Positions 1,583 to 50,459 of a DNA stretch of 64,000 nucleotides are shown piece after piece (position 1 is the stretch's first letter; each line of letters starts with the position of its first letter). Source of the stretch: Escherichia coli (GTDB taxonomy: Bacteria; Pseudomonadota; Gammaproteobacteria; Enterobacterales; Enterobacteriaceae); NCBI RefSeq assembly GCF_003790525.1, contig NZ_CP033635.1; one strand, written 5' to 3'. A program made the position numbers and the translations under genes. Under the pieces are notes generated by a model. That model was not told where the DNA came from. It searched no databases and was given only the letters and a program-made list of their open reading frames with translations.

Positions 1583-2187
1583 TGGCCTCTGTAGTAGAGA
1601 TCTGCAATCGTGCGCTGTCCAATATTGGCAATAGCCGCAGCATTAACAGCCTGACGGAAGCCAGCAAGGAAGCGGGGGAATGTTCGCTGCACTTTGAGGC
1701 CTGCCGTGATGCTGTGCTTTCTGATTTTGACTGGAACTTTGCTACCAAACGCGTGGCGCTTGCAGATACGAGCAATCCACCGCCTGACTGGGAATATGCG
1801 TACCAGTACCCGTCAGATTGTCTGCGCATTACTGAAATTATGCTTCCTGGTGTACGCAATCCAACAGCAGCAATGCGCGTTCAGTACGAAGTTGGTGCAG
1901 ACACCAACGGAACAGGAAAGTTGATCTACACAGACCAGCCTCAGGCATGGCTCAAGTATGTCTCTCTCGTTACAGATGTGAACATGTTTGATGCCATTTT
2001 TATGGAGGCGTTGGCCTGGCGTCTTGCGGCAGCTATTAACATGGCGCTGACTGGGAATGCAGACCTCGGTACGTTTGCCCTCAATATGTACAATCGCGTG
2101 ATTCTTAGTGCTGGCTCGCATAGCCAGAATGAATCACAGGAACCACAGCCACCGGTTGATGAGTTTACCATTGCGAGGTTGTCCTGA
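1582..2187 (+). CDS. Tail tubular protein A-like (T7 gp11-like)
   Basis: 201 aa; size, position and N-terminal sequence pattern resemble T7 gp11 from memory; stop/start overlap with neighbours. Confidence 0.6.
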   Translation: MASVVEICNRALSNIGNSRSINSLTEASKEAGECSLHFEACRDAVLSDFDWNFATKRVALADTSNPPPDWEYAYQYPSDCLRITEIMLPGVRNPTAAMRVQYEVGADTNGTGKLIYTDQPQAWLKYVSLVTDVNMFDAIFMEALAWRLAAAINMALTGNADLGTFALNMYNRVILSAGSHSQNESQEPQPPVDEFTIARLS

Positions 2188-4658
2188 TGGCTATCAGTTG
2201 GATCCAGCCCAGCTTTGCCGGTGGTGAGATTGGACCGTCGTTGTACGGGCGTATTGACATGGCGAAGTACCAGGTAGCATTGCGCAAGTGCGATAACTTT
2301 ATCGTGCGGCAGTATGGCGGCGTTGAGAATCGACCTGGTACGCGTTTTGTCGGTGCCGCCAAATACCCAAATCGGAAATGCCGCCTGATCCCGTTCCAAT
2401 TCTCGACGGTTCAGACTTATGCTCTGGAGTTCGGACACCAGTACATGCGCGTTATCAAAGATGGTGCGTTGGTGCTGAACAGCAGCAATGTTATTTATGA
2501 AATTGCCACGCCATATACTGAAGCCGATCTGTTCCGAATTAAATTCACGCAAAGCGCCGACGTGCTTACGCTGGTTCACCCGGCATACCCGCCGAAAGAG
2601 CTGCGCCGCTATGCGCATGACAACTGGCAACTGGTTGATGTGGTAACGAAGAACGGGCCATTTGAAGATATCAATATTGATGAGTCAGTGACGGTTTATG
2701 CCAGCGCCAGCACCGGGACAATTACGTTAACGGCAAGCGCCTCTATTTTTGGCGCGGAGCAGGTAGGCAAATTGTTCTATCTGGAACAGCCTGCAGTGGA
2801 TTCTGTGCCGGTATGGGAAACCAGTAAGAGTACGTCGATTGGCGATATTCGCCGTGCAGACAGTAACTACTATCGCGCCGTTACAGCAGGCAAAACAGGC
2901 ACTTTGCGCCCTTCGCATACAGAAGGCACATCATGGGATGGCTGGGGCGGATCCGGTGATGATGATACTGGCATTGAGTGGGAGTATCTGCACAGTGGTT
3001 TTGGCATTGCCCGTATAACTGCTGTAAATGGCACTACTGCAACTGCTGAGGTGATTTCCTATATCCCTTCGCAGGTCGTTGGCGAGGATAATGCCAGCTA
3101 TAAATGGGCTAAATATGCCTGGAACAGTGTTAATGGTTATCCTGGCACTGTTGTTTATTATCAACAACGTCTTTACTTCGCCGCATCGACTGCGTTCCCT
3201 CAGACCATCTGGGCCAGCCGTACCGGGGATTATAAGGATTTTGGCAAAAGCAATCCTACGCAGGATGACGACAGAATTATCTACACCTATGCCGGGCGTC
3301 AGGTTAATGAGATCCGTCACCTGATTGATGTTGGTTCTCTGGTGGCGCTGACTTCCGGAGGTGAGTACGTCATCACCGGCGACCAGAACAAAGTGTTAAC
3401 CCCATCATCATTTGCATTCAGCTCTCAGGGATCAAATGGCTCGAGTAATGTCCCACCAATTGCCGTAGCGAATATTGCTCTGTTCGTCCAGGAGAAAGGC
3501 AGTGTTGTCCGTGATCTGGCCTACTCATTCGATGTTGACGGCTATCAGGGGAACGACCTGACCATCCTTGCCAATCATCTTTTTCAGAAGCACAGCATTG
3601 TTGACTGGTGCTTCTCGATTGTCCCTTACTCCAGCGCCTTCTGCATCCGTGATGACGGTAAATTACTGGTGATGACCTATTTGCGTGATCAACAGGTTTT
3701 TGCATGGGCACCACAGTCCAGTACCGGAAAATATGAAAGCACATGCAGTATCAGCGAAGGCAATGAAGATGCGGTGTATTTCGTCGTTAACCGAACCGTT
3801 AACGGGCAAACAGTGAGATACATCGAGAGACTGTCCAGCCGTTTATTTACCAGCGATGAAGATGCTTTCTTTGTTGATTCTGGCCTTAGCTATGATGGAA
3901 GAAATACGTCTGACAGAACGATGACCATCACTGGTGGTTCTGGTGAATGGGATTACCGCGCGGAATATACAATCAGTGTTTCTGGTGGTGCGTACTTCAC
4001 CAGTAGTGATGTCGGTGCGCAACTACAGTTCCCTTATACCGGAACTGATCCTGATACTGGCGATGAAGTGTCAAAAGAATTACGTTGCGACATTATTTCT
4101 GTAACCAGCAATACCGCTGTAGTGGTTCGTGCTAACAGGAACGTCCCGCCATCCCTCAGGAATGTGGCCACCACGAACTGGCAGATGGCGCGCCGGACAT
4201 TTGGAGGCCTGTCTCATCTTGAAGGCCAGACCGTAAACATTCTTTCTGATGCGAATGTTGAGCCACAGAAAGTTGTTTCCGGAGGTGCCGTCACACTGGA
4301 ATCACCGGGGGCTGTAGTGCACATCGGCCTGCCAATAACTGCTGAATTCGAAACACTGGATATCAACATTAACGGACAGGAAACGCTGCTGGACAAAAAA
4401 CAGGTGATCCCCTCCGTTACTCTGGTTGTGAATGCCAGCCGCGGCATCTGGGCGACTACGCCTGGCGGTAAATGGTACGAACATCCACAGCGTGAATTCG
4501 AGTTCTACGATGATCCTGTTGATGATGCTACCGGAAAAGTAGAAGTGAAACTGGACAGTAACTGGGGCAAAAACGGACGTGTAAAAATCCGTCAGCTTGA
4601 CCCGTTGCCGCTGTCTGTTCTTGCCGTTATTCCTCGCCTTACTGTTGGGGGATTCTGA
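2187..4658 (+). CDS. Tail tubular protein B-like (T7 gp12-like, nozzle)
   Basis: 823 aa directly after the gp11-like gene; N-terminal GG...RPG pattern like gp12; TGATG overlap at both ends. Confidence 0.6.
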   Translation: MAISWIQPSFAGGEIGPSLYGRIDMAKYQVALRKCDNFIVRQYGGVENRPGTRFVGAAKYPNRKCRLIPFQFSTVQTYALEFGHQYMRVIKDGALVLNSSNVIYEIATPYTEADLFRIKFTQSADVLTLVHPAYPPKELRRYAHDNWQLVDVVTKNGPFEDINIDESVTVYASASTGTITLTASASIFGAEQVGKLFYLEQPAVDSVPVWETSKSTSIGDIRRADSNYYRAVTAGKTGTLRPSHTEGTSWDGWGGSGDDDTGIEWEYLHSGFGIARITAVNGTTATAEVISYIPSQVVGEDNASYKWAKYAWNSVNGYPGTVVYYQQRLYFAASTAFPQTIWASRTGDYKDFGKSNPTQDDDRIIYTYAGRQVNEIRHLIDVGSLVALTSGGEYVITGDQNKVLTPSSFAFSSQGSNGSSNVPPIAVANIALFVQEKGSVVRDLAYSFDVDGYQGNDLTILANHLFQKHSIVDWCFSIVPYSSAFCIRDDGKLLVMTYLRDQQVFAWAPQSSTGKYESTCSISEGNEDAVYFVVNRTVNGQTVRYIERLSSRLFTSDEDAFFVDSGLSYDGRNTSDRTMTITGGSGEWDYRAEYTISVSGGAYFTSSDVGAQLQFPYTGTDPDTGDEVSKELRCDIISVTSNTAVVVRANRNVPPSLRNVATTNWQMARRTFGGLSHLEGQTVNILSDANVEPQKVVSGGAVTLESPGAVVHIGLPITAEFETLDININGQETLLDKKQVIPSVTLVVNASRGIWATTPGGKWYEHPQREFEFYDDPVDDATGKVEVKLDSNWGKNGRVKIRQLDPLPLSVLAVIPRLTVGGF

Positions 4659-36074: not shown

Positions 36075-36109
36075 CAGCCCGACGAACTGTTTCGCCGGGC
36101 TGATTTTTA
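36075..36109 (+). terminator. Intrinsic terminator after perM
   Basis: Long imperfect hairpin (CAGCCCGACGAA...TTCGCCGGGCTG) followed by ATTTTTA. Confidence 0.55.
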
Positions 36110-36955
36110 GGGTTCCTGACGTAAATAAATAGCCCGATAACAAATACTCACCAGCACTGCACCGCCGATAATATTACCCAGCATCACCGGGAGCAGATTG
36201 GCGGTAATAAAATGGCTGACCGTCAGTGCCGGAAAATGGTCTGCGCTACTGTGCGCCAGTTGCCAGAAGGAGGTAGGGGCGAAATGGCGAATGGCAATGG
36301 CGAACGGAATCACAAACAAATTGGCGATACAGTGCTCAAAACCACTGGCGACAAACAGGGTGATGGGCAAAATCATGGCGACGATTTTGTCGCATAACGA
36401 ACGTCCGCAATAACTCATCCACAGCGCCAGGCAAACCATCACATTGCACATAATGCCGAGGCTGACTGATTCAGTAAATGTATGATGCATTTTGCCCTCG
36501 GCGCAGTGTAAAACCGCGACTCCCCACATCGCGTTTTCACTCATCACCAGCCCGGAAAACCAAATTAACAAACTGAAACAGGCAATACCTGCCAGATTAC
36601 CGCAGGCCACCAGAAGTGCATTAATCAGCCATGTTCGCCAGCTAATAACGCCCCGACTTTTTGCCATCACCGTCATTACCGACGAGGTGAACAGGCTGGT
36701 GCCGCAAACCGCCAGCAAAATAAAGCCGAGCGTAAAGCAAAGGCCTCCCACCAGATGGGTTAATGCCTGTGAAGACGGGGCATCGGCGATAACGGTAAGG
36801 TAAAAAGTAAATCCGATCGCCATAAACACGCCTGCGGACATCGCCATTAAAAAGACCGACACTTTGCTGCGGGCAATTTTATGGGCGGCAATCCGTTCAG
36901 CGATTGCCGCTTTTCTGGCGCTCAACTGCAAGTCGAAAGAGAGTTTGTTTCTCAT
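36107..36955 (-). CDS. focB: Formate channel FocB
   Basis: 282 aa FNT-family membrane protein downstream of hyfR. Confidence 0.9.
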   Translation of the reverse strand: MRNKLSFDLQLSARKAAIAERIAAHKIARSKVSVFLMAMSAGVFMAIGFTFYLTVIADAPSSQALTHLVGGLCFTLGFILLAVCGTSLFTSSVMTVMAKSRGVISWRTWLINALLVACGNLAGIACFSLLIWFSGLVMSENAMWGVAVLHCAEGKMHHTFTESVSLGIMCNVMVCLALWMSYCGRSLCDKIVAMILPITLFVASGFEHCIANLFVIPFAIAIRHFAPTSFWQLAHSSADHFPALTVSHFITANLLPVMLGNIIGGAVLVSICYRAIYLRQEP

Positions 36956-36976: not shown

Positions 36977-38989
36977 TTACAACACCTCGCGAACCGAGAT
37001 CCCCAGACGCTGCATTCGTGACAGCAGCGTGGTGCGCTTCATCCCTAATCGTGTCGCCGCGCCACGGGGCCCGGCAACAATGCCATTGGTTTCTCGCAAT
37101 ACCTGAACAATGCGCTGACGTTCTTCTTCGTCATTCTCTGGCGTCGTCGGGTGCAGCAACTGCGCCATTGAACTGCGAAGCGCTGAATCTTCATTTAGCG
37201 TCGGCAGTAAACGGCTTTGTCGGACATTAAGATGTAAATTCAGACTGTTACCGCGAGTCAGTAGTACCGCTCGCTCAATCACGTTTTCCAGCTCGCGCAC
37301 GTTGCCCGGCCAGTCCCACGACATCAACTGGCGTAGCGCCTCGGTCGGGATGGCGTCAATTGCGCGATTCATATGGCGCGCCATTTTTTGCGTGAAATGC
37401 TTTGCTAAAAGAGGGATATCTTCCGGACGGTCGCGCAGTGGCGGCAGTTCCAGTGGGAAGACATTCAGGCGATAAAAGAGATCGCTGCGAAACTGGCGAT
37501 CTTCAACCATTTGCCACAAATCACGGTTGGTGGCGGCAATGACTCTGACATTTACCGGGATCGTTCTACTCCCGCCGAGACGCTCAATCTCCCGTTCCTG
37601 CAATACGCGCAGCAGTTTAGGCTGAAGTTCTAACGGCAGATCGCCAATTTCATCGAGAAACAACGTGCCGCCATCGGCAATTTCAAAACGACCACGATGG
37701 GTATTAATCGCACCAGTAAATGCCCCTTTGTCATGACCGAATAACTCACTTTCCAGAAGACTGGCGGGGATGGCAGCGCAGTTGATTTTGACCAGTGGCT
37801 TGTCGCGTCGTGGGCTAAGTTGATGGATCGCTCTGGCGATCACCTCTTTGCCGGTTCCGGTTTCACCACAAATCAACACCGTACTGTCGCTCTTCGCCAC
37901 AATATCTACCTGCTGGAGCAGGTCTTCCATTGCCTGGCTTTGATAGATAATGTCACCGACGCCCAGATTCGAAAGGAGCTGCTCGCTAAGCTGGTGGTTT
38001 TCTTGCTGCAAGCTTTCCTGCAAATCGGTCATGCTGCGCCAGGCATCGGCATTGCCAACGGCAATAGCGATGCGATCGGCAATATGTTGTAGTAGCTGGC
38101 AGTTTTCCTCACTAAAGAGAGTGGAAGAGGTATGCGCCAGCAACAATGCACCCGGTGTATGGTTGCCAAAGGTGAGCGGTATAAGGAGCGCAGATTCGCA
38201 GCCGTTAGATGCAAGTAAGTGTAATAACGGGTCGCGTTGCCAGAGAAACAGATCGTCTGCACGGTGCGTCAAGGTCGGTTGTCGGGTTTGTAGCGTTTGT
38301 GTCAGCAATACACTGTCGCCAGCCATATTGCGTGGCAGACACGCACAATGTGAGGCAGAAAGATCGCTGCACCACAGGCTGAACTTCTCGTTCTTTCGAT
38401 GATCGCCCAGTACCATACTGACTGAAGCCAGACCGAAAAAATGATGGATCTCACGAGCGACGTCAGCGATCAGATTGTCGAGATCAAGATGTGACAACAC
38501 TGCATTAGTGATATCCACCAGTACCCGATGATGATCGCGATCTTTCTCCAGCAAACGCAGCGCCACCTGCTGTTCTTCATCATTGAGCCATGATTGCAGA
38601 ACCGGAGTGATTATGTGTGCCAGCCAGTTAAACAGTGTGCAATCCTGGGGAGTAAAACGACTGCCGTGGGTGCGAATAAAGCGTAGCTCCGCCATTCCAC
38701 TACTGCCGAGAAGGACGGCGTGGCGCGAATAATCGACCATCTCACCCTGATACTTTGTTGTTGCCGTCACATCGCTGCCATCATCATGGTAGCGGTAATA
38801 GAAGTTGCTTTTGAGAACATGCAGTTCAATAAGTTGTACCGGGCTGAACGGCGGCGGCAGCGGGATGAAGGCGCGTAATAAAGACGCCTTGCCGTGTTTC
38901 TGCGCTAACCGCTCCGCGAGCATTCCGTTTACCGCTTCAATTGTTATTCCTTGCGGCGGGGCAAACATCGCCTCGTCTGACATAGCCAT
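36977..38989 (-). CDS. hyfR: Sigma54-dependent transcriptional activator HyfR
   Basis: GAF-like N-terminus, AAA+ sigma54-interaction motifs ([14 protein letters not shown]), C-terminal HTH. Confidence 0.9.
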
Positions 38990-39018: not shown

Positions 39019-39432
39019 TCACGCAATTTTTCTGGCCATCAGATAGATGGCCGGTTCCTGCACAATTTCATCCAACAGATGAATGAATTGAATGCTACGC
39101 GCCTGCCACGCCGACGTCGCGTCATCTGCCAGTGGCGCGAATGCCCGGGTCAACAGGGCGGTGTGGCTGGCGTCAATAACAATCTCACCAAAAGTCATCA
39201 CCCCCAGCATCTTACGTCGGGCTTGCTCCTCTTCGACCAGTGCAAGCCAATCTTCGTATTCCGTCAGTGGGCAGCGGAAGGCGACATTCAGACAATCAAT
39301 CACGCCAACGTGATGGCCGATAGCTAGCGAGTAATACATTACCTGAGAGCTGTGTTCCGGCATCTCGTCGCTACTGGCGACAAACTTTTTTCGCAGCGTC
39401 CAGAAAACAATTTCCCCGCACTCTTCAGTCAT
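39019..39432 (-). CDS. hyfJ: Hydrogenase-4 component J
   Basis: 137 aa from [14 protein letters not shown]-track extension trimmed. Confidence 0.85.
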
Positions 39433-40183
39433 GTAACCCCCGGAGTACGCGAAAGAGTTGCTGAACGATACTATTGAGACGTGGATCGTCGGCATCGCGC
39501 AACCAGGTGTTAACCCGATTTCCTGTAGGATCGTCGCTTAAATGGCGCAGGAGTCGATCGCAAATTTCTCGCCCTTGACGATAGCCCGCCAGCCGCCTCG
39601 CTTCTCGCTCAATGGCGATACGCTGTGATGGCGGGATCTGCGGCCACAGCGGTTGCATGGTCACCCCGGTGGGATCGCGATAATCCACCGCGTGAATCTT
39701 CTGTTGCAGCAAACCGAGCGCCACGGCGAAACCGTGAATGGTGGCGGCCGGTGTTGGCGGGCAGCCGGGGATCCAAACATCAATGGGGACAATGGTGTCG
39801 CTGCCGCCCCAGACGCTGTAAAGATCGTGGAAAATACCGCCGCCGACACCGCACGCGCCGTAGGAAACACAAATTTTATGATCGGGGGCAGACTCATATG
39901 CCCGAAGTGCAGGCATACGCATCGCACGGGTGACTGCGCCAGTAAATAACAAAATATCGGCGTGACGCGGTGATGAAACAACCTTAATGCCAAAACGTTC
40001 TGCGTCGAATACGGGTGTGATGGCGGCAAAAATTTCGATTTCGCAGGCGTTACAGCCGCCGCAATCGACGCGATAAACGTAAGCCGAGCGACGGATATCC
40101 TGTAGCAAATGCTGCTTCATCTTTTGCGTTTGCTCGTCCAGCGTAATGGGCTGGCTGACATGTTGCGTAAGCACTGGACTCAT
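39425..40183 (-). CDS. hyfI: Hydrogenase-4 small subunit-like component I
   Basis: 252 aa, NuoB-like Cys motifs. Confidence 0.9.
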
Positions 40184-40725
40184 AGCTGCTCCTTAGCCAC
40201 CAGCGGTTCATTTGTGTCGTCGTTGATCAGCGTCGCGCGTTGTTTGCATTCCGGGCAGACGCTCGCTTGCGCCCGTAACATTTCGCGGTTTTGTGGTGCA
40301 TTTTGTTGCTGTGCCAACAGTTCTGCAGCCAGTGCGACGGTTTTTTGCGGGGCAAACGGGCGTTCGCAACGGCTGCAACGTTGTAGATGGAACGTCGCGC
40401 GGGTATAGAGATCGGCTTTATTGGTGACGGTCAGTTCAAAGTTATTGGTAAGCTGAATGGCTCTGGTCGGGCACACTTCTTCACAACGTCCGCAGTAAAT
40501 ACAACGCCCCAGATAGAGCTGCCAGGTGCGCGTATTTTGCTGGTCGTCGGTCTGGATAGTCAGCGCATTTGCCGGACAAGCACAGGCGCAGGCACCGCAG
40601 GCAATACATTGGCTGGGCATCAGGTCCGGTTTCCCGCGAAAGCCTGGGCTGACCTCCAGTGGCGCGAAGGGATACTTCACCGTCGCGGTTCCGGCGCGCA
40701 TAATAGTTTTCAGTAACTTCAGCAT
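40180..40725 (-). CDS. hyfH: Hydrogenase-4 ferredoxin-type component H
   Basis: 181 aa with two 4Fe-4S Cys clusters. Confidence 0.9.
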
Positions 40726-40734
40726 TTTCTGTCC

Positions 40735-42450
40735 TTACTTCAGCGGCGAACGGTTACGATCAATGCCGTAGCGTTCGATCTCTTTATACGGCACGGTTTT
40801 TGACTGGCGCTTGCGCACATCAACCAGCGTCACACGGTCGGTACAGGAGTAACAGGGATCAAGGCTACCGATAATCAGCGGTGCGTCAGAAACGGTATTG
40901 CCGCGCAGCATGTAACGCAGCACTGGCCAGTTGGCGTAGGTGGCGGCACGACAGCGCCAGCGGAACAATTTTTGGTTATCACCGAGCATGCTCCAGTGCA
41001 CGTCTTCACCGCGTGGCGCTTCAACAAAGCCCAGCGCGAATGCGTGAGGTTTATAGCTAAAGCCTTCGGTCAGCAGTGGGGTATCCGGCATGTTGTCGAG
41101 GGCAAATTCCAGCATTGCCAGCGAATCAAACGTCTCTTTGACACGGACCATCACGCGGGAGAAGACATCGCCGCCGGTAAAGGTAAACAGCGTTTTGGGA
41201 ATATTACCGTAGTCGGCGTAGGGGTGATCAAAGCGCAAATCACGGGCAAAACCACTGCCGCGGATCAGCGGCCCGACAGGGCTATAATCACGGGCGATTT
41301 GTCGGTCGAGAATGCCAATGCCCTGAGTGCGTTGTTCCATATTCGGCGTGGCAAGCAGCATCTCTACCAGCTCCGACACGTCGGCGCGCATCTCGCGCAC
41401 CAGTTTCAGCGTTTGCAGACGTTGCTCTTTGAGAATATCGCGGCGAACACCACCAATCAGATTCAGACCGTAGGTTTTACGCGACCCGGTCAGCAATTCC
41501 GCCATCGTCATCGACTTTTCCCGCACGCGGAAAAATTGCATAAAGCCGGTATCAAAACCAACAAAATGGCAGGAGAGGCCAAGGTTGAGCAAATGACTAT
41601 GCAGCCGTTCGACTTCCAGCAGAATCGAGCGAATAGTATGCGCTCGTTGCGGCACCTCAATCCCCAGTGCATTTTCAACCGAGTTGGTATAGGCCACACT
41701 GTGGGCAAAACCGCAAATCCCACACACGCGGTCGGATAAGAAGGTCACTTCGTTGTAGCCCATCCGCGTTTCTGCCAGTTTCTCCATGCCGCGATGGACA
41801 TAAAACAGGCGGTAATCAGCATCGACAATTTGCTCGCCATCCACAAACAAGCGGAAGTGACCTGGTTCATCGGAGGTGATATGCAGCGGGCCGACAGGGA
41901 TCACCCGCGCATCGCTGTTGCCCTCGTTGATAAACGGATACGTTTCGGTATCAGTCGTCGGTTCTGGGCGCAGTCGATAATCCATCGCGTCTTTGCGCAG
42001 CGGATGCATATCTTCCGGCCAGTCATCGGGCAACACCAGCCGACGCTGATCCGGCAGGCCAACCGGAATCAGCCCGTACATATCGCGAATTTCTCGCTCG
42101 CCCCAGACCGCGGCAGGGACGCGCGGTGTGACTGACGGAAACTCCCGACTGTCGGCATCGACCAGTGCCTTCACCACGATCCAGCATTTTTCGGCCCCTT
42201 CCATAGAAAGGGCATAATAAACCGCGTAATGACCGTTAAGTGTCCGCTCGTCGTTGCCAAACAGGACTGGAAGCCAGCCATCATGTTGATAATAAAGATA
42301 ATGCACAACGTCAGGCAGCAGATTGATTTTCACCGTAATGGTGACCTGTTCAGGCGTTTGTCGCTCTTCATCCAGCACCGCGCCGGGGAACTGCGTTTTC
42401 AGGGCGGCGAGAATCGCTTCGCCACGATTTGACGATGAATTAACGTTCAC
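40735..42450 (-). CDS. hyfG: Hydrogenase-4 large subunit component G (start uncertain; GTG at 42450 chosen)
   Basis: NiFe large-subunit-like; ORF-track start 42495 would overlap hyfF by 56 nt. Confidence 0.85.
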
Positions 42451-44020
42451 TGTGTTTCTCCGAAACAGATGCGGTGCCTGAAGGCAAAAAATCATGCCAG
42501 GTGCTACGTTGTGCAGGCAGGTCGTGCGTCCCTGAGAGGACTATAGTGGAAGCGCCCGCCAGGATCCTGATGACAGGTTGTGGAATATGCGTTCCCATCG
42601 CCAGCATCATGACCAGCAGAATCACCATTGGCGAGGTGGTCAACCAGCCAAGTTCACCCCGGTTAACGGCCTGCGGCGGTTTCGCCATTAACACCCGCGC
42701 AGCCATCCGTACCAGGCCCGCCAGCACCAGCGTTAACAGCAATAACAGCAGGACGATAAGCAGCAGATGATTACGCGCCAGCCCTGCGGTAACGGTCATA
42801 AATTCGCTAAGAAAAATGTTGAAGGGCGGCATCCCGGCCAGCGCCAGCGCACCGCCGCCAAACAGCACGGCGGTAAATGGCATGATTTTGAGCATTCCGC
42901 AGACGACGTTGAGATCGCGCGTGCCGTACTTGAGCAGTACATTGCCGGAACCGCAGAACAGCAGCGTTTTTGCCAGACTGTGGTTTAAGGTGTGCAGCAG
43001 CGCGGCAAAAATTCCCAGCGGCCCGCCAATGCCTAACGCCACCGCGACCAGTCCCATGTTCTCCACGCTGGAGTACGCCAGCAGACGCTTAATGTCCCGC
43101 TGTACCAGAATGAAAAATGCCGCCACGGCAACCGACAACATGCCGAAGATGAGCAACAACCGGTTGGGGAAATCGCTGCCGATGGCCTGGCAAATAATGA
43201 TGTAATAGCGAATCAGCACCAACAGCGCGCAGTTCAGCAATACGGCGGAGAGCAGGGCGCTGACCGGACTCGGCGCTTCACTGTGAGCATCTGGCAGCCA
43301 GGCGTGCATGGGGAATAGCCCGGTTTTAGTGCCAAAGCCAATTAGCACAAACACAAAGGCCAACAGCATTAATGTTGGGTCAAGCAAGGACGATTGCTTA
43401 AGAACCTCGCTCCAGAATATCGCCATTTCTGCCTGCGGCATAACGCTGGCGGCGTTGGCGTATACCAGCACGGTACCGAACAGACCAAAAGCGACACCAA
43501 CAGTACAAATAATGATGTACTTCCATGCAGCTTCCAGCGATGAACGCTGACCGTAAATGCCTACCAGAAACGCCGAGCTTAAGGTGGTGGCTTCGATCGC
43601 CGCCCACATCACAATCAGGTTATTGCTGGTAACAACCAGCAGCATGGTGAACAAAAACAGATGGAAGAAACCGTAGTAATCGCACAGCGTAACGGGTGAA
43701 AGCTCGCCGTGCTCCACTTCATGACGCATGTAGCCAATCGAGTAAACACCGGTGAGAAAGCCAATCACACCAAGAATGGCGAGGAACAAACCGCCCAGAC
43801 CATCAATATGAAGCCACAGTCCCGCAGCGAATATTTCTCCCGCATCAGCGGCTGTTTGGACCACCCAGAGTGCCAGAATCAGCAGCAGTGTGATCCCTAA
43901 GCTATGTAATACTGTCACCGCGCGAGTCGGAGAGTGCCCCCGTTTCCGGCAGGCAAAACAGAGCAGCGAAAAAAGCAGCGGCGTGAGCAGGAGTAAAGCG
44001 AACATCACAGAATAACTCAT
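42440..44020 (-). CDS. hyfF: Hydrogenase-4 membrane component F (NuoL/M/N-like antiporter subunit)
   Basis: 526 aa polytopic membrane protein. Confidence 0.9.
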
Positions 44021-44024
44021 CTCA

Positions 44025-44675
44025 TTATCCCTTCAGCGCGGTCAAGTTGTTCACGTTCAGCGTGCCGTGGGTACGCCATATTTTTCTTGCCAGTAACACC
44101 ATCACAATGACGGCGAAGATGGCGTCGGTAGCGATACCAATTTCCACCAGTTCCGGTGCACGCCAGGCAAGAAGCGCCAGCACCAGATGGGAGCCGTTTT
44201 CCATCAGGCAGTAACCAAAAATTTGCCGCAGGATATTGCGCTGGCTGACAATGCACAGCAGGCCAAGCAGAAAATGACCTAACGCCACCGCCAGCGCCGG
44301 TTTCAGCCCGGTAGCCATCGGTAGCTTCACGGGCTGAACGACAAATGCGCAAAGCAGGACAATTAACGCCGCGAGCAGTGTCATCATTGCCGGACCGAAT
44401 AACGCTTTTTCCGGGAGGTTCTGGGGAATATTTCGTGCAGCGTAAGTCATGATTAACGGTACCAGCAGCACTTTGGTGATAAAGGCGCTGGCGGACCAGA
44501 TCAGCAGTTGCTCTGCGGCGAACAGGCACGAGAGAGTGGCGAAAATAGACACCAGCACCAGCGACTGGCAGGCGTAAAATCCGCATGACAGGCGATAGCT
44601 TTTGACACTAATCACAAACAGCGATGTCAGCATCATCAGTCCCGCCAGATTATTTACGATCATAGAACCGGTCAT
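44025..44675 (-). CDS. hyfE: Hydrogenase-4 membrane component E
   Basis: 216 aa membrane protein. Confidence 0.9.
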
Positions 44676-44686
44676 TCATCATCTCC

Positions 44687-46126
44687 TTACTGCAACCAGG
44701 TCGCGGCGATTACGCTGGAAATCAGCGACATCACAATCAGTACAATCAACACCAGGCGCATTGATCCTGGCAGCGGTGCGGCATCGGCGACGGCCTCGCT
44801 CGGTTTGCCAGGCACGACGCGACCAAACCAGCGAATAAACCAGGCGAAACTGGCGACCGATTCAATCATCAGCAGAATCATGGCGGGCAGCAGGATCCAG
44901 TACTCCACTGACAACGAAAAACCGGCAGCAAACAGCGGGAATTTACTGAAGAAGCCGTTGAACGGCGGTACGCCAGTAATCGCCAGCGCGGCTACGCAGA
45001 AACCCACGCCTGGCAACGGCAGGGTGTGCAATACGCCACGCAGACGCGGCAACAAGCGCGTGCCGCAGCTGTAACTCAGCGCACCTGCTACAAGGAAAAA
45101 CAGGCTTTTAGCGAACGCGTGGTTGACGATGTAGGCGATGCTGCCCTCCAGCGACAGCCGCGAGCCGAAGATGGAGAGCGACAAGCCGAAAAACATCCAG
45201 CCAAGTTGAGTGATGGTCGACCAGGCCAGCAACCGCTTCATATCCTGCTGTGGCAAATACATCAGGAAGCCGTAAAGAATGGTGACCAGTGCCATAACCA
45301 TGCCAACGCCGCCAATCACATGCGGGATATTGCCGCCGTCGATAATGGCACGGGCAAAAATGTAAACGCCCACTTTCACCATCGATGCGGCGTGGAGATA
45401 GGCGCTGATCGGTGTTGGCGCTTCCATTGCATCCGGTAGCCACGCTTGCATCGGTAGCTGGGCCGATTTCCCCCACGCGGCAAACAGAATGCCGCCATAA
45501 ACCAGATAACGTGCGTCGCCGTGTAACTCGCTCATCGCGCTAAGCGCAAACGTTCCGGTCTGCAAAAACAGCGTGGCGGCGGCAAGATACAACCCCAGCG
45601 AACCGATATGAGTGATAAGTAACGCTTTTAGTGCTGAACGCTGCGCTTTATCGCTCTGGTAATAACTGATCAACGCCCAGGAGCAGCCGCCCGTAATTTC
45701 AAAAAACAACAACTGACCGAGCAGCGTTGAGGAGAGTACCAGTCCCGCCATCGCGCCGATAAACACCAGCAAAAATGCGTAATAACGATTCGTGCCGTTA
45801 TGCGGGTGTTCGCGATTTTTATCCGTCAGATAACCCGTGGAGTAGATCGTGACCAGCAAACCGAGGAACACCACCACAAACAGAATCAGCGTACTCACGC
45901 GATCAATGACCAGGCCAAACAACGCCACATCCCCCACGTTGACCAACGTCAACGTGACGGCAACTTTATCGGCCTGATAAAACGCGGAGATCAGCGACAA
46001 CATGCACAGCGTGGTCAGCGCGGCGAACAAAATCCCCCATTCGGCGGCCCGACGTTGTGGCGAAAACGAAACGACCAGTGCGCCGATAAAAGGCAGCAAT
46101 AACGTCGTCAGAGCAAGATTTTCCAT
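44687..46126 (-). CDS. hyfD: Hydrogenase-4 membrane component D
   Basis: 479 aa antiporter-like subunit. Confidence 0.9.
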   Translation of the reverse strand: MENLALTTLLLPFIGALVVSFSPQRRAAEWGILFAALTTLCMLSLISAFYQADKVAVTLTLVNVGDVALFGLVIDRVSTLILFVVVFLGLLVTIYSTGYLTDKNREHPHNGTNRYYAFLLVFIGAMAGLVLSSTLLGQLLFFEITGGCSWALISYYQSDKAQRSALKALLITHIGSLGLYLAAATLFLQTGTFALSAMSELHGDARYLVYGGILFAAWGKSAQLPMQAWLPDAMEAPTPISAYLHAASMVKVGVYIFARAIIDGGNIPHVIGGVGMVMALVTILYGFLMYLPQQDMKRLLAWSTITQLGWMFFGLSLSIFGSRLSLEGSIAYIVNHAFAKSLFFLVAGALSYSCGTRLLPRLRGVLHTLPLPGVGFCVAALAITGVPPFNGFFSKFPLFAAGFSLSVEYWILLPAMILLMIESVASFAWFIRWFGRVVPGKPSEAVADAAPLPGSMRLVLIVLIVMSLISSVIAATWLQ

Positions 46127-46142
46127 ATTCCGTCAGTGCTCC

Positions 46143-47090
46143 TTACAGACCGGTTAACCAGAAGACCCAGGCAAGCGCAGCAAGGCTGAAGCCAAGCCAG
46201 GTCACATGGTGAATGAGTAAAAAACGCCCGCGTGCCAGCGTGTTTTCTGCGATAGAGGCCAGAACAAAAATCAGCAAAACCTTGAGCAGCGTAACGACAA
46301 GTGAAGTCAGCAGGCAGGTGAGAGAAAGCTCTTGCGCGCGCCCAAAGGGCAGAAACAGGGCCACAAACAGTGATGCCATCACGACCTGTTTCAGCCCCAG
46401 CCCCAACTTCGCCAGCGCCAGCCCGGCACCGGAATATTCGGTCAGCGGGCCTTCCTGTAATTCCTGTTCTGCTTCAGCAACATCAAAGGGAATTTTTCCC
46501 ATCTCAATGAAGCAGGCAAAACCACAGGCCAGTAACGCCAGTACGGTGGTTAGCGGCGAGTTCCAGCCCGTCGCCAGCGTCTTGCTGATCATCTCGATAT
46601 GCGTGGAATCCGCTATCAGCGCCAATACCAGCAGTGAGAGAATGAGCATGGGTTCGACCAGAATGCCGAGCGTTAACTCGCGACTGGCACCGATTCCCGC
46701 AAAGGGGCTTCCGGTATCCAGCCCGGAAAGAGCAAAGAAAAAACGAAATAGGGCAAGAAGATAGATAAGGGTGATCAGATCGCCGCCGCCCGCAAAAGGG
46801 GAAACAGTAATAAATAGTGGTAGGGCCATCGCCAGCACCAGCATGCTGCTGATTAATACCCACGGCATCAGGCGGAACATCAGACCTGAAGATGTCGGCG
46901 CAACTTCCTGGCGTTTAAACAGTTTGTGGATATCGCGATAATCCTGCCAGATCCCCGGTCCGCGACGGGAGTGCATACGCGCGCGTATCTGCCGGGAAAT
47001 CCCCGTAAAAAGCGGGGTTAGCGCCAGCAGAATCACGGCCTGTGCTAACGCAAAAATGATCAGATATCCGTCGCAAAGAGTTTGTCTCAT
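46143..47090 (-). CDS. hyfC: Hydrogenase-4 membrane component C (NuoH-like)
   Basis: 315 aa from MRQTLCDGYL. Confidence 0.9.
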   Translation of the reverse strand: MRQTLCDGYLIIFALAQAVILLALTPLFTGISRQIRARMHSRRGPGIWQDYRDIHKLFKRQEVAPTSSGLMFRLMPWVLISSMLVLAMALPLFITVSPFAGGGDLITLIYLLALFRFFFALSGLDTGSPFAGIGASRELTLGILVEPMLILSLLVLALIADSTHIEMISKTLATGWNSPLTTVLALLACGFACFIEMGKIPFDVAEAEQELQEGPLTEYSGAGLALAKLGLGLKQVVMASLFVALFLPFGRAQELSLTCLLTSLVVTLLKVLLIFVLASIAENTLARGRFLLIHHVTWLGFSLAALAWVFWLTGL

Positions 47091-47100
47091 GGTGATTTCC

Positions 47101-49119
47101 TTAGACGGCAATAGCGATTAGCAGCACAACCAGTGCGGCGACCACATACAGGCAATAGAGACGAAAGTCGCCGCTTTGCAGATGCTGTATTTCTTTGGCC
47201 AGCCGTTGGGTGGCGCTCACGATGGGGCGGATCACCCGCTCATCCCAGAAGGGTTCTGTGCTCTGAGCCCTGGCGGTGACGTGCGCAAGACCTTTGTTCA
47301 GCCTCAGCGTAGGGTCGAGCTGTTGTCGTAGACGAAATAGCGCACAAAAGACCACACGCAGCGGCTGCATCACGCCATTGCCTGACGGGGCCATCGCATT
47401 ATCCCAGCCGTAGCCGCATGCCCAGGCATCTCCTGTGCGACGAAACGCTGCGCGGCGCGAACGACACCACAGCCAGTAAAGGCCAGGCAGCAAAGGCATC
47501 GCCAGTAGTAACAGCAACAGTAATGAGGGAGTGACCCGTGTATGAAACGTGCCGGGTACAAGTGCTATTCCGCTGGCGACAGTGACGGGAGGGGTATTGG
47601 TAAACGCATGGGCAATGTGCATTATCTTCGGTGCCAGCCAACTGGCACTAAGCGCAATGAATACGCAGAGTGCCGCGAGCAGTAGCATGGCGACGATCAT
47701 CGTATTTGGCACGTCCTGTGCCTCTTCAGCGTGTGTACTGCGCGGCGCACCACAGAAAGTAATGCCGTACATTTTGACGAAGCACATTACTGCCAGCCCA
47801 CCAGTGACTGCCAGCATCACCATAGCAATAGGACCCGCAAGTTGTAGCGCTACGGCTTCCACACGACTTAGTGAGAACAGCGACTGCCAGGTGTACCATT
47901 CGCTGATAAAACCATTCAGCGGAGGAATGGCTGATATCGCGAGGCAACCAATCAGGCATGCTGCGGCTGTCCACGGCATCCGTTTTGCCAGTGCCCCCAT
48001 TTTTTCCATGTCGTGGGTATGCAAACGCGAAATAATCGCACCCGCGCCGAGAAATAGCAGCCCTTTGAACAGCGCATGGTTGAGCAGATGAAACAGTGCG
48101 CCGAGCAGTCCAACCATGGTGAGCAGCGGGTCGTGCAGTGACAGACCGACCATGGACACACCGACCGCCAGCAAAATAATGCCGACGTTTTCGACGGTAC
48201 TCCAGGCCAGCAGCCGTTTGATATCCTGTTCCGCCAGCGCATACAGCACGCCCAGGAGCGCGGAGATTGCGCCGATCGCCATCACCAGAATGCCCCACCA
48301 CAGCGGCAAACCCGTTTGCGCCAGCAGATCCATCGCCACTTTCAGGATGCCGAAAATACCGATTTTGACCATTACGCCAGACATCAACGCCGAAGCGTGC
48401 GATGGTGCGGCAGGGTGAGCGCGCGGCAACCAGCTGTGCAACGGCATCATCCCGGCTTTCGCGCCAAAACCGAAGAAGGCCAGCAGGAACACCGCCGACG
48501 CCAGCCCCGGAGAAAGTGAAAGCGTGCGGAAACTGGCAAAATCGAGGCTGCCGCTTTCGCGCCCCATCAGCAAGAAGGCGATCATAATCAGCACCGATCC
48601 GGCGTGGGCGATAAAAACGTAGAGCATGCCAGCGTTGATTGACGTTTTATCCTGCCTGGCAATGACCAGAAACCAGGAAGACAGCGACATCATTTCAAAC
48701 AGCACGATGAACCAAAAAGCGTTATCCATCACCAGCAGGGCAACCATCGAGGCGATGAAAAGATTCATAAAGAAGCCCATCGCCGCCGCGCCTTTGCCCT
48801 CGTATTCGCGCATATAAGTCAATGAATAGAGCGAACAAACCACCACCAGCAAGGAGATAACCAGCACCATAAATGCCGAGAGGCTATCCATTCGCAGGGT
48901 TAAATCGGCAAAGTCAAAAGGCGTGGCAAAACGGGCGACTAAAGTTACGCCTGCATGTAATTGCGTAATTCCGCTGATGATGCCAATCACGCCGCCCACC
49001 AGCGATGTGATGCCGGAAAGCTTAATAGCCAGTCTGTCCAGACCGAGTAAAAACAGCGAAGCCAGACTGGCAAACAGATAGAGGATCAGCGACCAGGTTA
49101 ATAATTGCAGGGCATCCAT
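47101..49119 (-). CDS. hyfB: Hydrogenase-4 membrane component B
   Basis: 672 aa antiporter-like subunit. Confidence 0.9.
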   Translation of the reverse strand: MDALQLLTWSLILYLFASLASLFLLGLDRLAIKLSGITSLVGGVIGIISGITQLHAGVTLVARFATPFDFADLTLRMDSLSAFMVLVISLLVVVCSLYSLTYMREYEGKGAAAMGFFMNLFIASMVALLVMDNAFWFIVLFEMMSLSSWFLVIARQDKTSINAGMLYVFIAHAGSVLIMIAFLLMGRESGSLDFASFRTLSLSPGLASAVFLLAFFGFGAKAGMMPLHSWLPRAHPAAPSHASALMSGVMVKIGIFGILKVAMDLLAQTGLPLWWGILVMAIGAISALLGVLYALAEQDIKRLLAWSTVENVGIILLAVGVSMVGLSLHDPLLTMVGLLGALFHLLNHALFKGLLFLGAGAIISRLHTHDMEKMGALAKRMPWTAAACLIGCLAISAIPPLNGFISEWYTWQSLFSLSRVEAVALQLAGPIAMVMLAVTGGLAVMCFVKMYGITFCGAPRSTHAEEAQDVPNTMIVAMLLLAALCVFIALSASWLAPKIMHIAHAFTNTPPVTVASGIALVPGTFHTRVTPSLLLLLLLAMPLLPGLYWLWCRSRRAAFRRTGDAWACGYGWDNAMAPSGNGVMQPLRVVFCALFRLRQQLDPTLRLNKGLAHVTARAQSTEPFWDERVIRPIVSATQRLAKEIQHLQSGDFRLYCLYVVAALVVLLIAIAV

Positions 49120-49736
49120 TAGCGTTGCTCCTGAGTGAGGGAAAGGGGATCCTCCCCGCCATTGGCAAACCAGCTTGCGGCAAGGCGCTGTTTTTCTTTC
49201 ATCTGACGTTGCAGTCTATCGTCGGTGATCAGCCGTAACGCCTGATTCGGACAAGCGCGAACGCAGGCCGGACCTTCTGGCAAGAAATCACACAGGTCGC
49301 ATTTCACCGCGACGGTCTGGACACCCGGTTCCCAGCGCAGCAAAGCATGTTGGGTCGACACGTTTTCTTCGCCGTCTTTGAGTGAGCCCTCAGCCTGAAA
49401 AACATATTGCGCAGGGGCATTCACCGGACGGCTTCCTGAAGCGCTGATTGCGCCAAATGGGCAGACCACGGCGCAAAGCTTGCAACCAATACAAAGGCTT
49501 TCGTTGAGTTGGATCGCATCATCCCTCTGGGAGATGGCATTGACCGGGCAGACCTGCAGGCAAGGGGCTTCCTCACAGTGATGACACACGACAGGGGCAG
49601 TGAGTGTTGACGTCTTCGCCAGGGCCAGGCGCGGGTGTTGCTGTAAACCTTGCGTTTTATGCACGTCCGAACAGGCAGCGAGACAGGTATTACATCCTGT
49701 ACACCACAGTGGTTCGGCCACCACAAAGCGGTTCAT
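49119..49736 (-). CDS. hyfA: Hydrogenase-4 ferredoxin component A
   Basis: 205 aa from MNRFVVAEPLWCTGC, multiple 4Fe-4S motifs. Confidence 0.9.
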   Translation of the reverse strand: MNRFVVAEPLWCTGCNTCLAACSDVHKTQGLQQHPRLALAKTSTLTAPVVCHHCEEAPCLQVCPVNAISQRDDAIQLNESLCIGCKLCAVVCPFGAISASGSRPVNAPAQYVFQAEGSLKDGEENVSTQHALLRWEPGVQTVAVKCDLCDFLPEGPACVRACPNQALRLITDDRLQRQMKEKQRLAASWFANGGEDPLSLTQEQR

Positions 49737-49777
49737 GTCGGCTCCTTGAAAATGATATGAAACATTGCATTTCATAT

Positions 49778-49793
49778 TGCATAAAGAATGCCA
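49778..49793 (-). promoter_or_regulatory. Sigma54-type promoter (-24 TGGCAT, -12 TGCA) upstream of hyfA
   Basis: TGGCAT-N5-aTGCA read on the - strand with GG and GC in the canonical 12-nt register; hyf is known to be sigma54- and HyfR-dependent. Confidence 0.5.
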
Positions 49794-49988
49794 GTCTGAT
49801 TAATTTAATATATTCAATAAGTTATGAATTAACTGTATTCTGAACGGTACAAAAATGATGGTCATTAACGTTCAGCAATAAATGGATTCGACACCCGTGT
49901 CGCAGGGGAAAGCGAGAATGTGATCTTGATCACGAGAAGTGAGGTGTGCTGGCCGCAAGCACAGCCAGCACGGAATGGAGCAAAGTAA

Positions 49989-50459
49989 TCAGGCGTGTTC
50001 TTTCAGCCAGTTCAGCACAACGTCGTGGTGATTGCTGGTTTTGAAATCGTCAAAGACATGTTCGATTTTGCCATCAGCGTCAATCAGGAAGCTGATGCGA
50101 TGAATACCATCGTAGGTTTTGCCCATGAAGGACTTTTCACCCCAGACGCCGAATTGTTCGCACACCTGGTGGTCCTCATCAGACAGGAGCGTAAAGTTAA
50201 GCAGCTCTTTTTCCGCAAAACGGGAGAGTTTTTCGGGTTTATCGGTGCTGATACCCAGCACATCGACGCCCGCTTTTTTCAACTCATCCATGTTATCGCG
50301 TAAGCCGCAGGCCTGTACGGTACAGCCGGGGGTCATGGCTTTCGGGTAGAAATAAACCAGAACACGCTGTCCCTGGAAGTCGGTCAAATTAACTTGTTCT
50401 CCGTCTTGATCCGGCAAGCTAAATTTCGGTGCGATATCACCGGCTTTCAGTGGATTCAT
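49989..50459 (-). CDS. bcp: Thiol peroxidase (bacterioferritin comigratory protein)
   Basis: 156 aa peroxiredoxin with TPGCT motif. Confidence 0.95.
   Translation of the reverse strand: MNPLKAGDIAPKFSLPDQDGEQVNLTDFQGQRVLVYFYPKAMTPGCTVQACGLRDNMDELKKAGVDVLGISTDKPEKLSRFAEKELLNFTLLSDEDHQVCEQFGVWGEKSFMGKTYDGIHRISFLIDADGKIEHVFDDFKTSNHHDVVLNWLKEHA

What the first reader, a model, noticed from the sequence alone, without database searches (positions are those of the whole stretch)
49778..49793. Sigma54-type -24/-12 element upstream of hyfA
Seen: TGGCAT-N5-aTGCA on the - strand about 40 nt upstream of the hyfA start codon. Established knowledge: hyf expression depends on sigma54 and the activator HyfR encoded at the other end of the operon.
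Basis: partly seen in the sequence, partly recalled or inferred. Interest (0 to 1): 0.3.

Follow-up and report, generated by a model that had tools for sequence, protein, structure and literature searches.

The report
Known sigma-54 promoter of hyf operon
The flagged motif is the already characterised sigma-54 (-24/-12) promoter of the E. coli hydrogenase-4 (hyf) operon, present here as a rare allele with its key bases intact, so the finding is correct but ordinary.

Summary
On the minus strand at 49794..49778 the window reads CTGGCATTCTTTATGCA. GG and GC have the canonical sigma-54 spacing (GG-N10-GC), and the motif ends 41 nt before the hyfA start codon (49736).

The window is E. coli chromosome: bcp, then hyfABCDEFGHIJ-hyfR-focB. 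The K-12 orthologue, ATGGCATCCTTTATGCA, differs at two non-core bases. It is listed as a sigma-54 ChIP-seq site (OS23, flagged experimentally confirmed in EcoCyc; PMC4591121). The same spacer gives one of the strongest RpoN-holoenzyme peaks in genomic SELEX (PMC8743547).

The motif alone is not significant in 64 kb; about one equally good hit is expected by chance. Its position is significant. It is the top-scoring site in the window. A sigma-54 site also sits 38-62 nt upstream of hyfA in all nine other loci examined, from E. fergusonii to Proteus, Hafnia and Aeromonas.

Conserved upstream elements are a CRP-type site (about -158), an FhlA/HyfR-type palindrome (about -128), a conserved block (about -99) and an IHF-like site (about -51).

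One nuance: the literature names both FhlA and HyfR as activators, and hyfR is followed by focB.

Verdict: already known, low interest.

The parts
49778..49794 (-). Sigma-54 -24/-12 promoter element CTGGCATTCTTTATGCA (GG at 49792-49791, GC at 49780-49779)
   Evidence: Sequence. Top weight-matrix hit in the window, 15.75 bits. The K-12 orthologue is ChIP-seq site OS23, and the spacer holds a top genomic SELEX peak. TGGCA...TGC is invariant in the 8-sequence alignment and in 8 E. coli alleles.
49766..49767 (-). Predicted transcription start, giving a 5' UTR of 30-31 nt
   Evidence: Rule used in PMC4591121: the start lies 19 bp downstream of the motif centre, which gives 49767, 31 nt before the ATG, as listed for K-12. 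From memory, Skibinski 2002 mapped it 30 bp upstream by primer extension; that paper was not readable here.
49734..49747 (-). Shine-Dalgarno AAGGAG (49747-49742) and hyfA start codon ATG (49736-49734)
   Evidence: GGA and ATGAACCGC are invariant across species. The longer mechanical ORF starting at 49775 is not conserved upstream of MNRF.
49812..49824 (+). IHF-like site ATTCAATAAGTTA (1 mismatch to WATCAANNNNTTR), centred at about -51 in an AT-rich stretch
   Evidence: The TTGA core (TCAA on the other strand) is invariant in the alignment. Function is inferred only.
49850..49873 (-). Conserved block (G)AACGTTAATGACCATCATTTTTG centred at about -99; possible second activator site
   Evidence: Strongly conserved in E. 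coli, E. fergusonii, Citrobacter, the Klebsiella-like locus and Kosakonia. Weak FhlA-matrix match of 4.8 bits.
49889..49902 (-). Palindrome CGACAC-GG-GTGTCG centred at about -128; likely FhlA/HyfR enhancer (UAS)
   Evidence: Inverted repeat I10. Found at -126 to -128 in all 7 sequences with an alignable spacer (E. coli window and K-12, E. fergusonii, two Citrobacter, the Klebsiella-like locus, Kosakonia). The same CGWCA-N4-TGWCG type lies upstream of K-12 fdhF, and CGACA/TGTCG half-sites fill the hyc-hyp spacer. The FhlA-matrix score is only 5.0 bits.
49919..49934 (-). CRP-type site cGTGA-TCAAGA-TCACA centred at about -158
   Evidence: One mismatch to TGTGA-N6-TCACA; one of only two such sites in the window. 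Perfect TGTGA-N6-TCACA with a variable spacer at the same position in E. fergusonii and two Citrobacter. It is also the best FhlA-matrix hit in the spacer (9.98 bits), so the assignment is ambiguous.
49946..49971 (-). Strong hairpin just after the bcp stop codon (bcp ends at 49989)
   Evidence: Inverted repeat I6. RNA fold -20.8 kcal/mol, z = -4.17. No U-tract follows, so the simple terminator scan does not call it.
36977..38989 (-). hyfR, sigma-54 enhancer-binding activator gene of the operon
   Evidence: Annotation of the identical strain SC516 mapped onto the window. Pfam: GAF, Sigma54_activat (E = 4.7e-75) and AAA_lid_14.
39019..49736 (-). hyfABCDEFGHIJ structural genes transcribed from this promoter
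   Evidence: Annotation of strain SC516, 100% identical over the 501-nt query spanning the spacer; ORFs.

Best explanation
This is PhyfA, the sigma-54-dependent promoter of the hydrogenase-4 operon hyfABCDEFGHIJ(-hyfR-focB).

RNA polymerase carrying sigma-54 binds the GG (-24) and GC (-12) elements at 49792-49779 and forms a stable closed complex that cannot open by itself. An FhlA-family AAA+ activator (FhlA and/or HyfR, both GAF-domain proteins) binds upstream, most likely at the conserved palindrome at about -128 and perhaps at the -99 block. The AT-rich region with an IHF-like site at about -51 lets the DNA loop so that the activator contacts the polymerase. ATP hydrolysis then drives open-complex formation, and transcription starts about 30 nt before hyfA. 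A conserved CRP-type site at about -158 probably adds cAMP-CRP input.

Shown: Inferred: which upstream elements bind which protein, and the role of IHF.
For: The motif has canonical spacing and is the best sigma-54 matrix hit in the window.

The K-12 orthologous motif is a ChIP-seq sigma-54 site flagged as confirmed, and the spacer holds a top genomic SELEX peak.

In 9 of 9 further loci the best site on the coding strand lies 38-62 nt before the start codon, scoring 11.6-17.6 bits against 9.3 or less for the second best. The chance of that is about 0.003 per locus.

TGGCA...TGC is the most conserved block of the spacer and is intact in all 8 E. coli alleles sampled.

No sigma-70-like promoter is found in the spacer, and no Rfam family matches it.

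hyfR encodes a sigma-54 activator.

The upstream palindrome and CRP-type site hold conserved positions and resemble the fdhF and hyc-hyp upstream regions.

In Proteus mirabilis, hyf promoter activity fell in fhlA and rpoN mutants (PMC7658346).
Against: The motif on its own is at chance level for 64 kb.

No experiment exists for this particular allele, which differs from K-12 at two positions of the 17-mer.

The -128 palindrome scores only 5.0 bits with the published FhlA matrix. The best FhlA-matrix hit coincides with the CRP-type site, so the enhancer assignment is uncertain.

The literature titles call hyf a 'silent operon' and note poor native expression, so binding does not imply much transcription under laboratory conditions.

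The primary mapping papers could not be read here.
Confidence: 0.95

Rival explanations
1. The motif is a chance match with no promoter function.
For: About one equally good hit is expected per 64 kb. Comparable hits occur inside hyfF (14.0 bits) and hyfR (13.4 bits).
Against: The site is in the right spacer, on the right strand and at the right distance. It is conserved at 38-62 nt upstream of hyfA in 9 other loci, several with unrelated flanking genes. The orthologous K-12 site is occupied by sigma-54 in vivo and in vitro.
Confidence: 0.01
2. Sigma-54 binds here, but the site is a poised, essentially silent closed complex in E. coli. Any physiologically relevant hyf expression would come from read-through from bcp or from an unrecognised sigma-70 promoter.
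For: Paper titles and text call hyf a 'silent operon' and note poor native expression. Replacing the promoter did not yield Hyd-4 activity (PMC7654741). Sigma-54 binds its sites whether or not they fire (PMC4591121).
Against: A strong hairpin follows bcp. No sigma-70-like -35/-10 is found in the spacer. The promoter and upstream sites are conserved in species where hyf is functional. The Proteus hyf promoter depends on rpoN and fhlA.
Confidence: 0.04

Closest known systems
E. coli K-12 hyfA promoter (hyfAp; sigma-54 ChIP-seq site OS23, ATGGCATCCTTTATGCA)
   Same: Orthologous position, the same 41-nt distance to the ATG, the same GG/GC core, and the same flanking genes bcp and hyfA.
   Different: Two substitutions in the 17-mer: C instead of A 5' of TGGCA, and T instead of C in the spacer. 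This raises the matrix score from 13.5 to 15.75 bits. The window allele is rare, exact in 28 of 5,426 genomes against 2,602 for the K-12 allele.
Other formate-regulon sigma-54 promoters of E. coli (hycA, hypA, fdhF, hydN)
   Same: -24/-12 promoters with short 5' UTRs (20-41 nt) and 'TGGCA(C/T)' cores. They have upstream CGWCA/TGWCG half-sites and FhlA-family activators.
   Different: hyf has its own paralogous activator gene (hyfR) within the operon. It has a conserved CRP-type site at about -158. Its palindrome has a GC-rich centre (GGG) where the other alignable relatives have A/T-rich triplets such as TAA, TAG, AAA or TTG.
Proteus mirabilis hyf promoter (PMC7658346)
   Same: A predicted RpoN site plus two FhlA-type sites upstream of hyfA, with reporter activity reduced in rpoN and fhlA mutants. 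In the Proteus faecis locus I found a 17.6-bit site 62 nt upstream of hyfA.
   Different: Different genomic neighbourhood, a longer 5' UTR, no CRP-type site detected, and no hyc operon in that organism.

Membership tests
Sigma-54 (-24/-12) promoter | GG and GC dinucleotides separated by 10 nt within a TGGCAC-N5-TTGCW-like sequence | tested here: met
   CTGGCATTCTTTATGCA, GG-N10-GC. Score 15.75 bits on a matrix of 41 independent sites whose range is 8.9-21.9 bits with median 16.3.
Sigma-54 (-24/-12) promoter | Located upstream of a gene, in sense orientation, with a short leader | tested here: met
   Lies in the 252-bp bcp-hyfA spacer on the hyfA strand, 41 nt from the ATG.
Sigma-54 (-24/-12) promoter | Evolutionary conservation of the core at the same position | tested here: met
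   Best site lies 38-62 nt upstream in 9 of 9 other loci. TGGCA/TGC are invariant in the alignment and in E. coli alleles. Null probability is about 0.003 per locus.
Sigma-54 (-24/-12) promoter | Occupancy by sigma-54 holoenzyme | not testable with these tools
   Literature for the K-12 orthologue only: ChIP-seq OS23, fold-above-threshold 16, and genomic SELEX peaks of 92% and 100%.
Sigma-54 (-24/-12) promoter | Transcription start about 12 nt downstream of GC, and rpoN-dependent transcription | not testable with these tools
   Flagged 'C' (experimentally confirmed in EcoCyc) in PMC4591121. The primary paper (Skibinski 2002) is not held.
Sigma-54 (-24/-12) promoter | A cognate bacterial enhancer-binding protein is available | tested here: met
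   hyfR in the window encodes GAF plus Sigma54_activat (E = 4.7e-75) plus AAA lid domains.
Sigma-54 (-24/-12) promoter | No competing sigma-70 -35/-10 promoter | tested here: met
   0 sigma-70-like sites in 49650-50050, with 0.9 expected. This is a simple consensus scan only.
FhlA/HyfR-activated formate regulon promoter | Upstream activating sequence of FhlA type about 100-150 bp upstream | tested here: inconclusive
   The conserved palindrome CGACAC-GG-GTGTCG at about -128 resembles fdhF CGTCAAAACTGACG and the hyc-hyp half-sites. It scores only 5.0 bits on the published FhlA matrix, and the best matrix hit (9.98 bits) overlaps the CRP-type site.
FhlA/HyfR-activated formate regulon promoter | Induction by formate, low pH and anaerobiosis through FhlA/HyfR | not testable with these tools
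   Supported only by the title of Skibinski 2002 and by my memory of its abstract.

The most novel reading that the evidence does not exclude
Natural variation at this promoter could tune the notoriously 'silent' hyf operon. Three observations bear on this. The window carries a rare allele that is 2.2 bits closer to the sigma-54 consensus than K-12. E. coli as a whole has a GC-rich centre (GGG) in the conserved -128 enhancer palindrome, where the other alignable relatives have A/T-rich triplets. At least one strain carries a 14-bp duplication inside the promoter. If these differences change sigma-54 or activator binding, hyf expression would depend on strain, which could help explain conflicting reports on Hyd-4 activity.
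Probability: 0.1. Interest if true: 0.3.

Novelty: already known. Interest (0 to 1): 0.08.

Why it matters
It matters little beyond correct annotation.

It also adds a view of allele diversity in E. coli. Both could guide mutagenesis aimed at understanding why hydrogenase-4 is so poorly expressed in E. coli.

Tried and rejected
1. Reading the primary papers failed. Skibinski 2002 (PMID 12426353, PMC135417) and Self 2004 (PMC305750) are not held. Statements about the mapped start site (30 bp upstream), the FhlA versus HyfR dependence and the CRP requirement therefore rest on my memory and are marked as such.

2. The genome-contig scan with a degenerate DNA pattern for MNRFVVAEP returned only four unrelated loci (Arthrobacter, Rhodospirillum, Breoghania, Verrucomicrobia) and no Escherichia. 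My guess is that the species representative lacks hyf. I replaced it with a protein search plus contig look-ups.

3. An Rfam scan of the spacer found nothing at E <= 1. No riboswitch or small-RNA reading is supported.

4. The simple terminator scan found nothing, although a strong hairpin follows bcp.

5. The 8-bp inverted repeat ATATGAAA-N7-TTTCATAT is centred on the predicted start site. I considered it as an operator or RNA hairpin. It is specific to E. coli and only weakly mirrored in relatives. By my own rough estimate about 0.4 such repeats are expected in this AT-rich spacer. The left arm lies upstream of the start, so an RNA hairpin is unlikely. I left it as a side note.

6. The longer mechanical ORF starting at 49775 (218 aa) was rejected as the hyfA start. 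The upstream 13 codons are not conserved, whereas the Shine-Dalgarno sequence and MNR are invariant.

7. The FhlA matrix alone could not assign the enhancer, because its best hit coincides with the CRP-type palindrome.

Full report
**Observation.** The minus strand of the window at 49800-49734 reads atcagaCTGGCATTCTTTATGCAatatgaaatgcaatgtttcatatcattttcAAGGAGccgacATG. GG lies at 49792-49791 and GC at 49780-49779, which is the canonical sigma-54 GG-N10-GC spacing. The motif ends 41 nt before the hyfA ATG (49736). The ORF list and the annotation of an identical strain confirm the gene order on the minus strand: bcp (50459..49989), a 252-bp spacer, hyfA (49736..49119), hyfB to hyfJ, hyfR (38989..36977) and focB (36955..36107).

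**Is it more than chance?** Not on its own.
- The degenerate pattern has 0.63 expected matches in the window, and 48 of 100 shuffles give at least one.
- I built a weight matrix from the 41 other intergenic sigma-54 ChIP-seq sites of PMC4591121, leaving hyfA out.
- By that matrix the site is the best of all positions on both strands (15.75 bits; training median 16.3). Even so, about one hit that good is expected per 64 kb.
- The significance comes from position. The chance of such a site on the correct strand within the 252-bp spacer is about 0.002 by my own estimate (0.975 hits per ~128,000 positions x 252). Conservation adds further weight (below).

**Identity.** The window is E. coli chromosome.
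- The 501-nt query spanning the spacer is 100% identical to strain SC516 and 95-99% identical to most other E. coli genomes.
- Over a 303-column alignment of the spacer and gene starts, K-12 is 98% identical. In the 17-mer it differs at two non-core positions: ATGGCATCCTTTATGCA in K-12 against CTGGCATTCTTTATGCA here.
- That K-12 17-mer is listed as sigma-54 ChIP-seq site OS23 upstream of hyfA. Its fold-above-threshold is 16, the predicted start lies 31 nt before the gene, and it carries the flag 'C', meaning experimentally confirmed in EcoCyc (PMC4591121).
- In genomic SELEX with reconstituted RpoN holoenzyme, the bcp>hyfA spacer gave a 92% peak with holoenzyme alone and the 100% reference peak with NtrC present (PMC8743547).
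- The primary study is Skibinski et al. [quoted passage not shown] It is cited by several held papers but could not be read. From memory, it mapped the start 30 bp upstream of hyfA by primer extension.

**Cross-species test done here.** A HyfA protein search and contig look-ups gave nine further loci:
- E. fergusonii, Citrobacter amalonaticus, Citrobacter sp. NCU1 and Kosakonia, all with the bamC-dapA-gcvR-bcp>hyfA synteny;
- a Klebsiella-like contig, Trabulsiella, Proteus and Hafnia, each in a different neighbourhood;
- a hyc-type Aeromonas locus, used as an outgroup.

In all nine, the best sigma-54 matrix hit on the coding strand of the upstream spacer lies 38-62 nt before the start codon. 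Scores are 11.6-17.6 bits, against 9.3 or less for the second-best site. On real-sequence background, a site of at least 11.6 bits in that 25-position window has a probability of about 0.003 per locus. In the eight-sequence alignment, TGGCA and T..TGC are invariant. Together with the Shine-Dalgarno sequence and start codon they form the most conserved part of the spacer. Eight E. coli alleles all keep TGGCA-N7-TGC.

**Anatomy of the rest of the spacer.** Positions are relative to a start at 49767.
- *Hairpin after bcp (49946-49971).* It folds at -20.8 kcal/mol with z = -4.2. No U-tract follows.
- *CRP-type site, about -158.* cGTGA-N6-TCACA at 49919-49934 is one of only two sites in the window within one mismatch of the consensus. 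E. fergusonii and both Citrobacter have a perfect TGTGA-N6-TCACA with a variable spacer at the same position. From memory, Self et al. 2004 reported a cAMP-CRP requirement; that paper was not readable.
- *Palindrome, about -128.* CGACAC-GG-GTGTCG at 49889-49902 is conserved at -126 to -128 in every sequence whose spacer is alignable to it (E. coli window and K-12, E. fergusonii, two Citrobacter, the Klebsiella-like locus, Kosakonia). Proteus, Hafnia and Aeromonas carry palindromes of the same CGWCA...TGWCG type. K-12 fdhF has CGTCAAAACTGACG upstream, and the hyc-hyp spacer is full of CGACA/TGTCG half-sites. This is my best candidate for the FhlA/HyfR enhancer, although it scores only 5.0 bits on the published FhlA matrix of PMC7658346.
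- *Conserved block, about -99.* AACGTTAATGACCATCATTTTTG may be a second activator site.
- *IHF-like site, about -51.* An AT-rich stretch holds a one-mismatch IHF-like site whose TCAA core is invariant.
- *Negative results.* No sigma-70-like promoter and no Rfam family was found.

**Mechanism.** Sigma-54 holoenzyme occupies the -24/-12 element as a closed complex. An FhlA-family AAA+ activator bound about 100-130 bp upstream contacts it by DNA looping, probably assisted by IHF, and uses ATP to open the promoter. hyfR in the window encodes such an activator, with GAF, Sigma54_activat and AAA-lid domains. FhlA is encoded elsewhere in the genome. Transcription starts about 30 nt before hyfA. Sigma-54 binding and the promoter's identity are shown for K-12 in the literature and supported by conservation here. 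The assignment of the individual upstream sites is inferred.

It is supported, with two refinements.
- Both FhlA and HyfR are named as activators in the primary paper's title. From memory of its abstract, a chromosomal hyfR deletion had no effect on native expression.
- hyfR is followed by focB, so it is not strictly at the end of the operon.

**Novelty.** None for the element itself. The allele is uncommon. The 36-nt promoter core of the window is exact in 28 genomes, against 2,602 for the K-12 version. It scores 2.2 bits higher. No functional consequence is known.

Noticed in passing
L021 (NZ_CP062863.1, E. coli Res13-Lact-PEB14-36), promoter region upstream of hyfA: A 14-bp tandem duplication lies inside the promoter: ATGGCATCCTTTATGCA|ACATCCTTTATGCA|ATATG. 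The intact -24/-12 element is moved 14 bp further from hyfA (55 nt instead of 41), and an orphan second '-12' copy is left behind.
   Followed up: no
window 49737-49830 (promoter-proximal 94 nt): The window's allele is rare. Only 27 of 4,297 hyf-carrying genomes are >=99% identical over these 94 nt, and 2,945 fall in the 90-95% band. This stretch is more diverse than the 501-nt region as a whole (95-99% identical in most genomes). All sampled variation spares the GG/GC core.
   Followed up: partly
window 49119-49988 (hyfA and spacer) versus the E. coli population: About 1,129 of 5,426 complete E. coli genomes match only the bcp part of the query and have no match to the hyfA promoter region. 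If the genome-contig collection's single E. coli representative is one of these, that would explain why the scan found no Escherichia; I did not check this.
   Followed up: partly
window 49755-49782 (-): A perfect 8-bp inverted repeat ATATGAAA-N7-TTTCATAT is centred on the predicted transcription start. A direct repeat ATGCAAT x2 (12-nt spacing) has its first copy overlapping the -12 element. Both are specific to E. coli; relatives have only a weak CAAA...TTTG counterpart. This could be an operator or simply chance in AT-rich DNA.
   Followed up: partly
window 42960-42976 (-) and 37152-37168 (-): These are the second- and third-best sigma-54 matrix hits in the window: CTGGCAAAAACGCTGCT (14.0 bits) inside hyfF, and ATGGCGCAGTTGCTGCA (13.4 bits) in the 3' end of hyfR, about 200 nt upstream of focB. 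A text search of the ChIP-seq paper found no hyf entry other than hyfA, so they are probably chance hits.
   Followed up: partly
L012 (Trabulsiella odontotermitis) 2692-3000: Here hyfA is divergent from hypABCD. The spacer carries a second strong sigma-54-like site on the opposite strand (14.1 bits) and a 13.7-bit FhlA-matrix site. This mirrors the E. coli hyc-hyp divergent arrangement, but with hyf.
   Followed up: no
L010 (Klebsiella-like metagenome contig) 1708-3000: A 1.3-kb stretch with no called gene lies between gltX and hyfA, in a different chromosomal location from the E. coli-type synteny. The promoter-proximal ~150 nt still align with E. coli and Citrobacter.
   Followed up: no
window 49946-49971 (-): A strong 11-bp-stem hairpin lies 18 nt after the bcp stop codon (-20.8 kcal/mol, z = -4.2). 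It has no U-tract and is not conserved in sequence in relatives. It may be a bcp terminator or mRNA stabiliser.
   Followed up: partly
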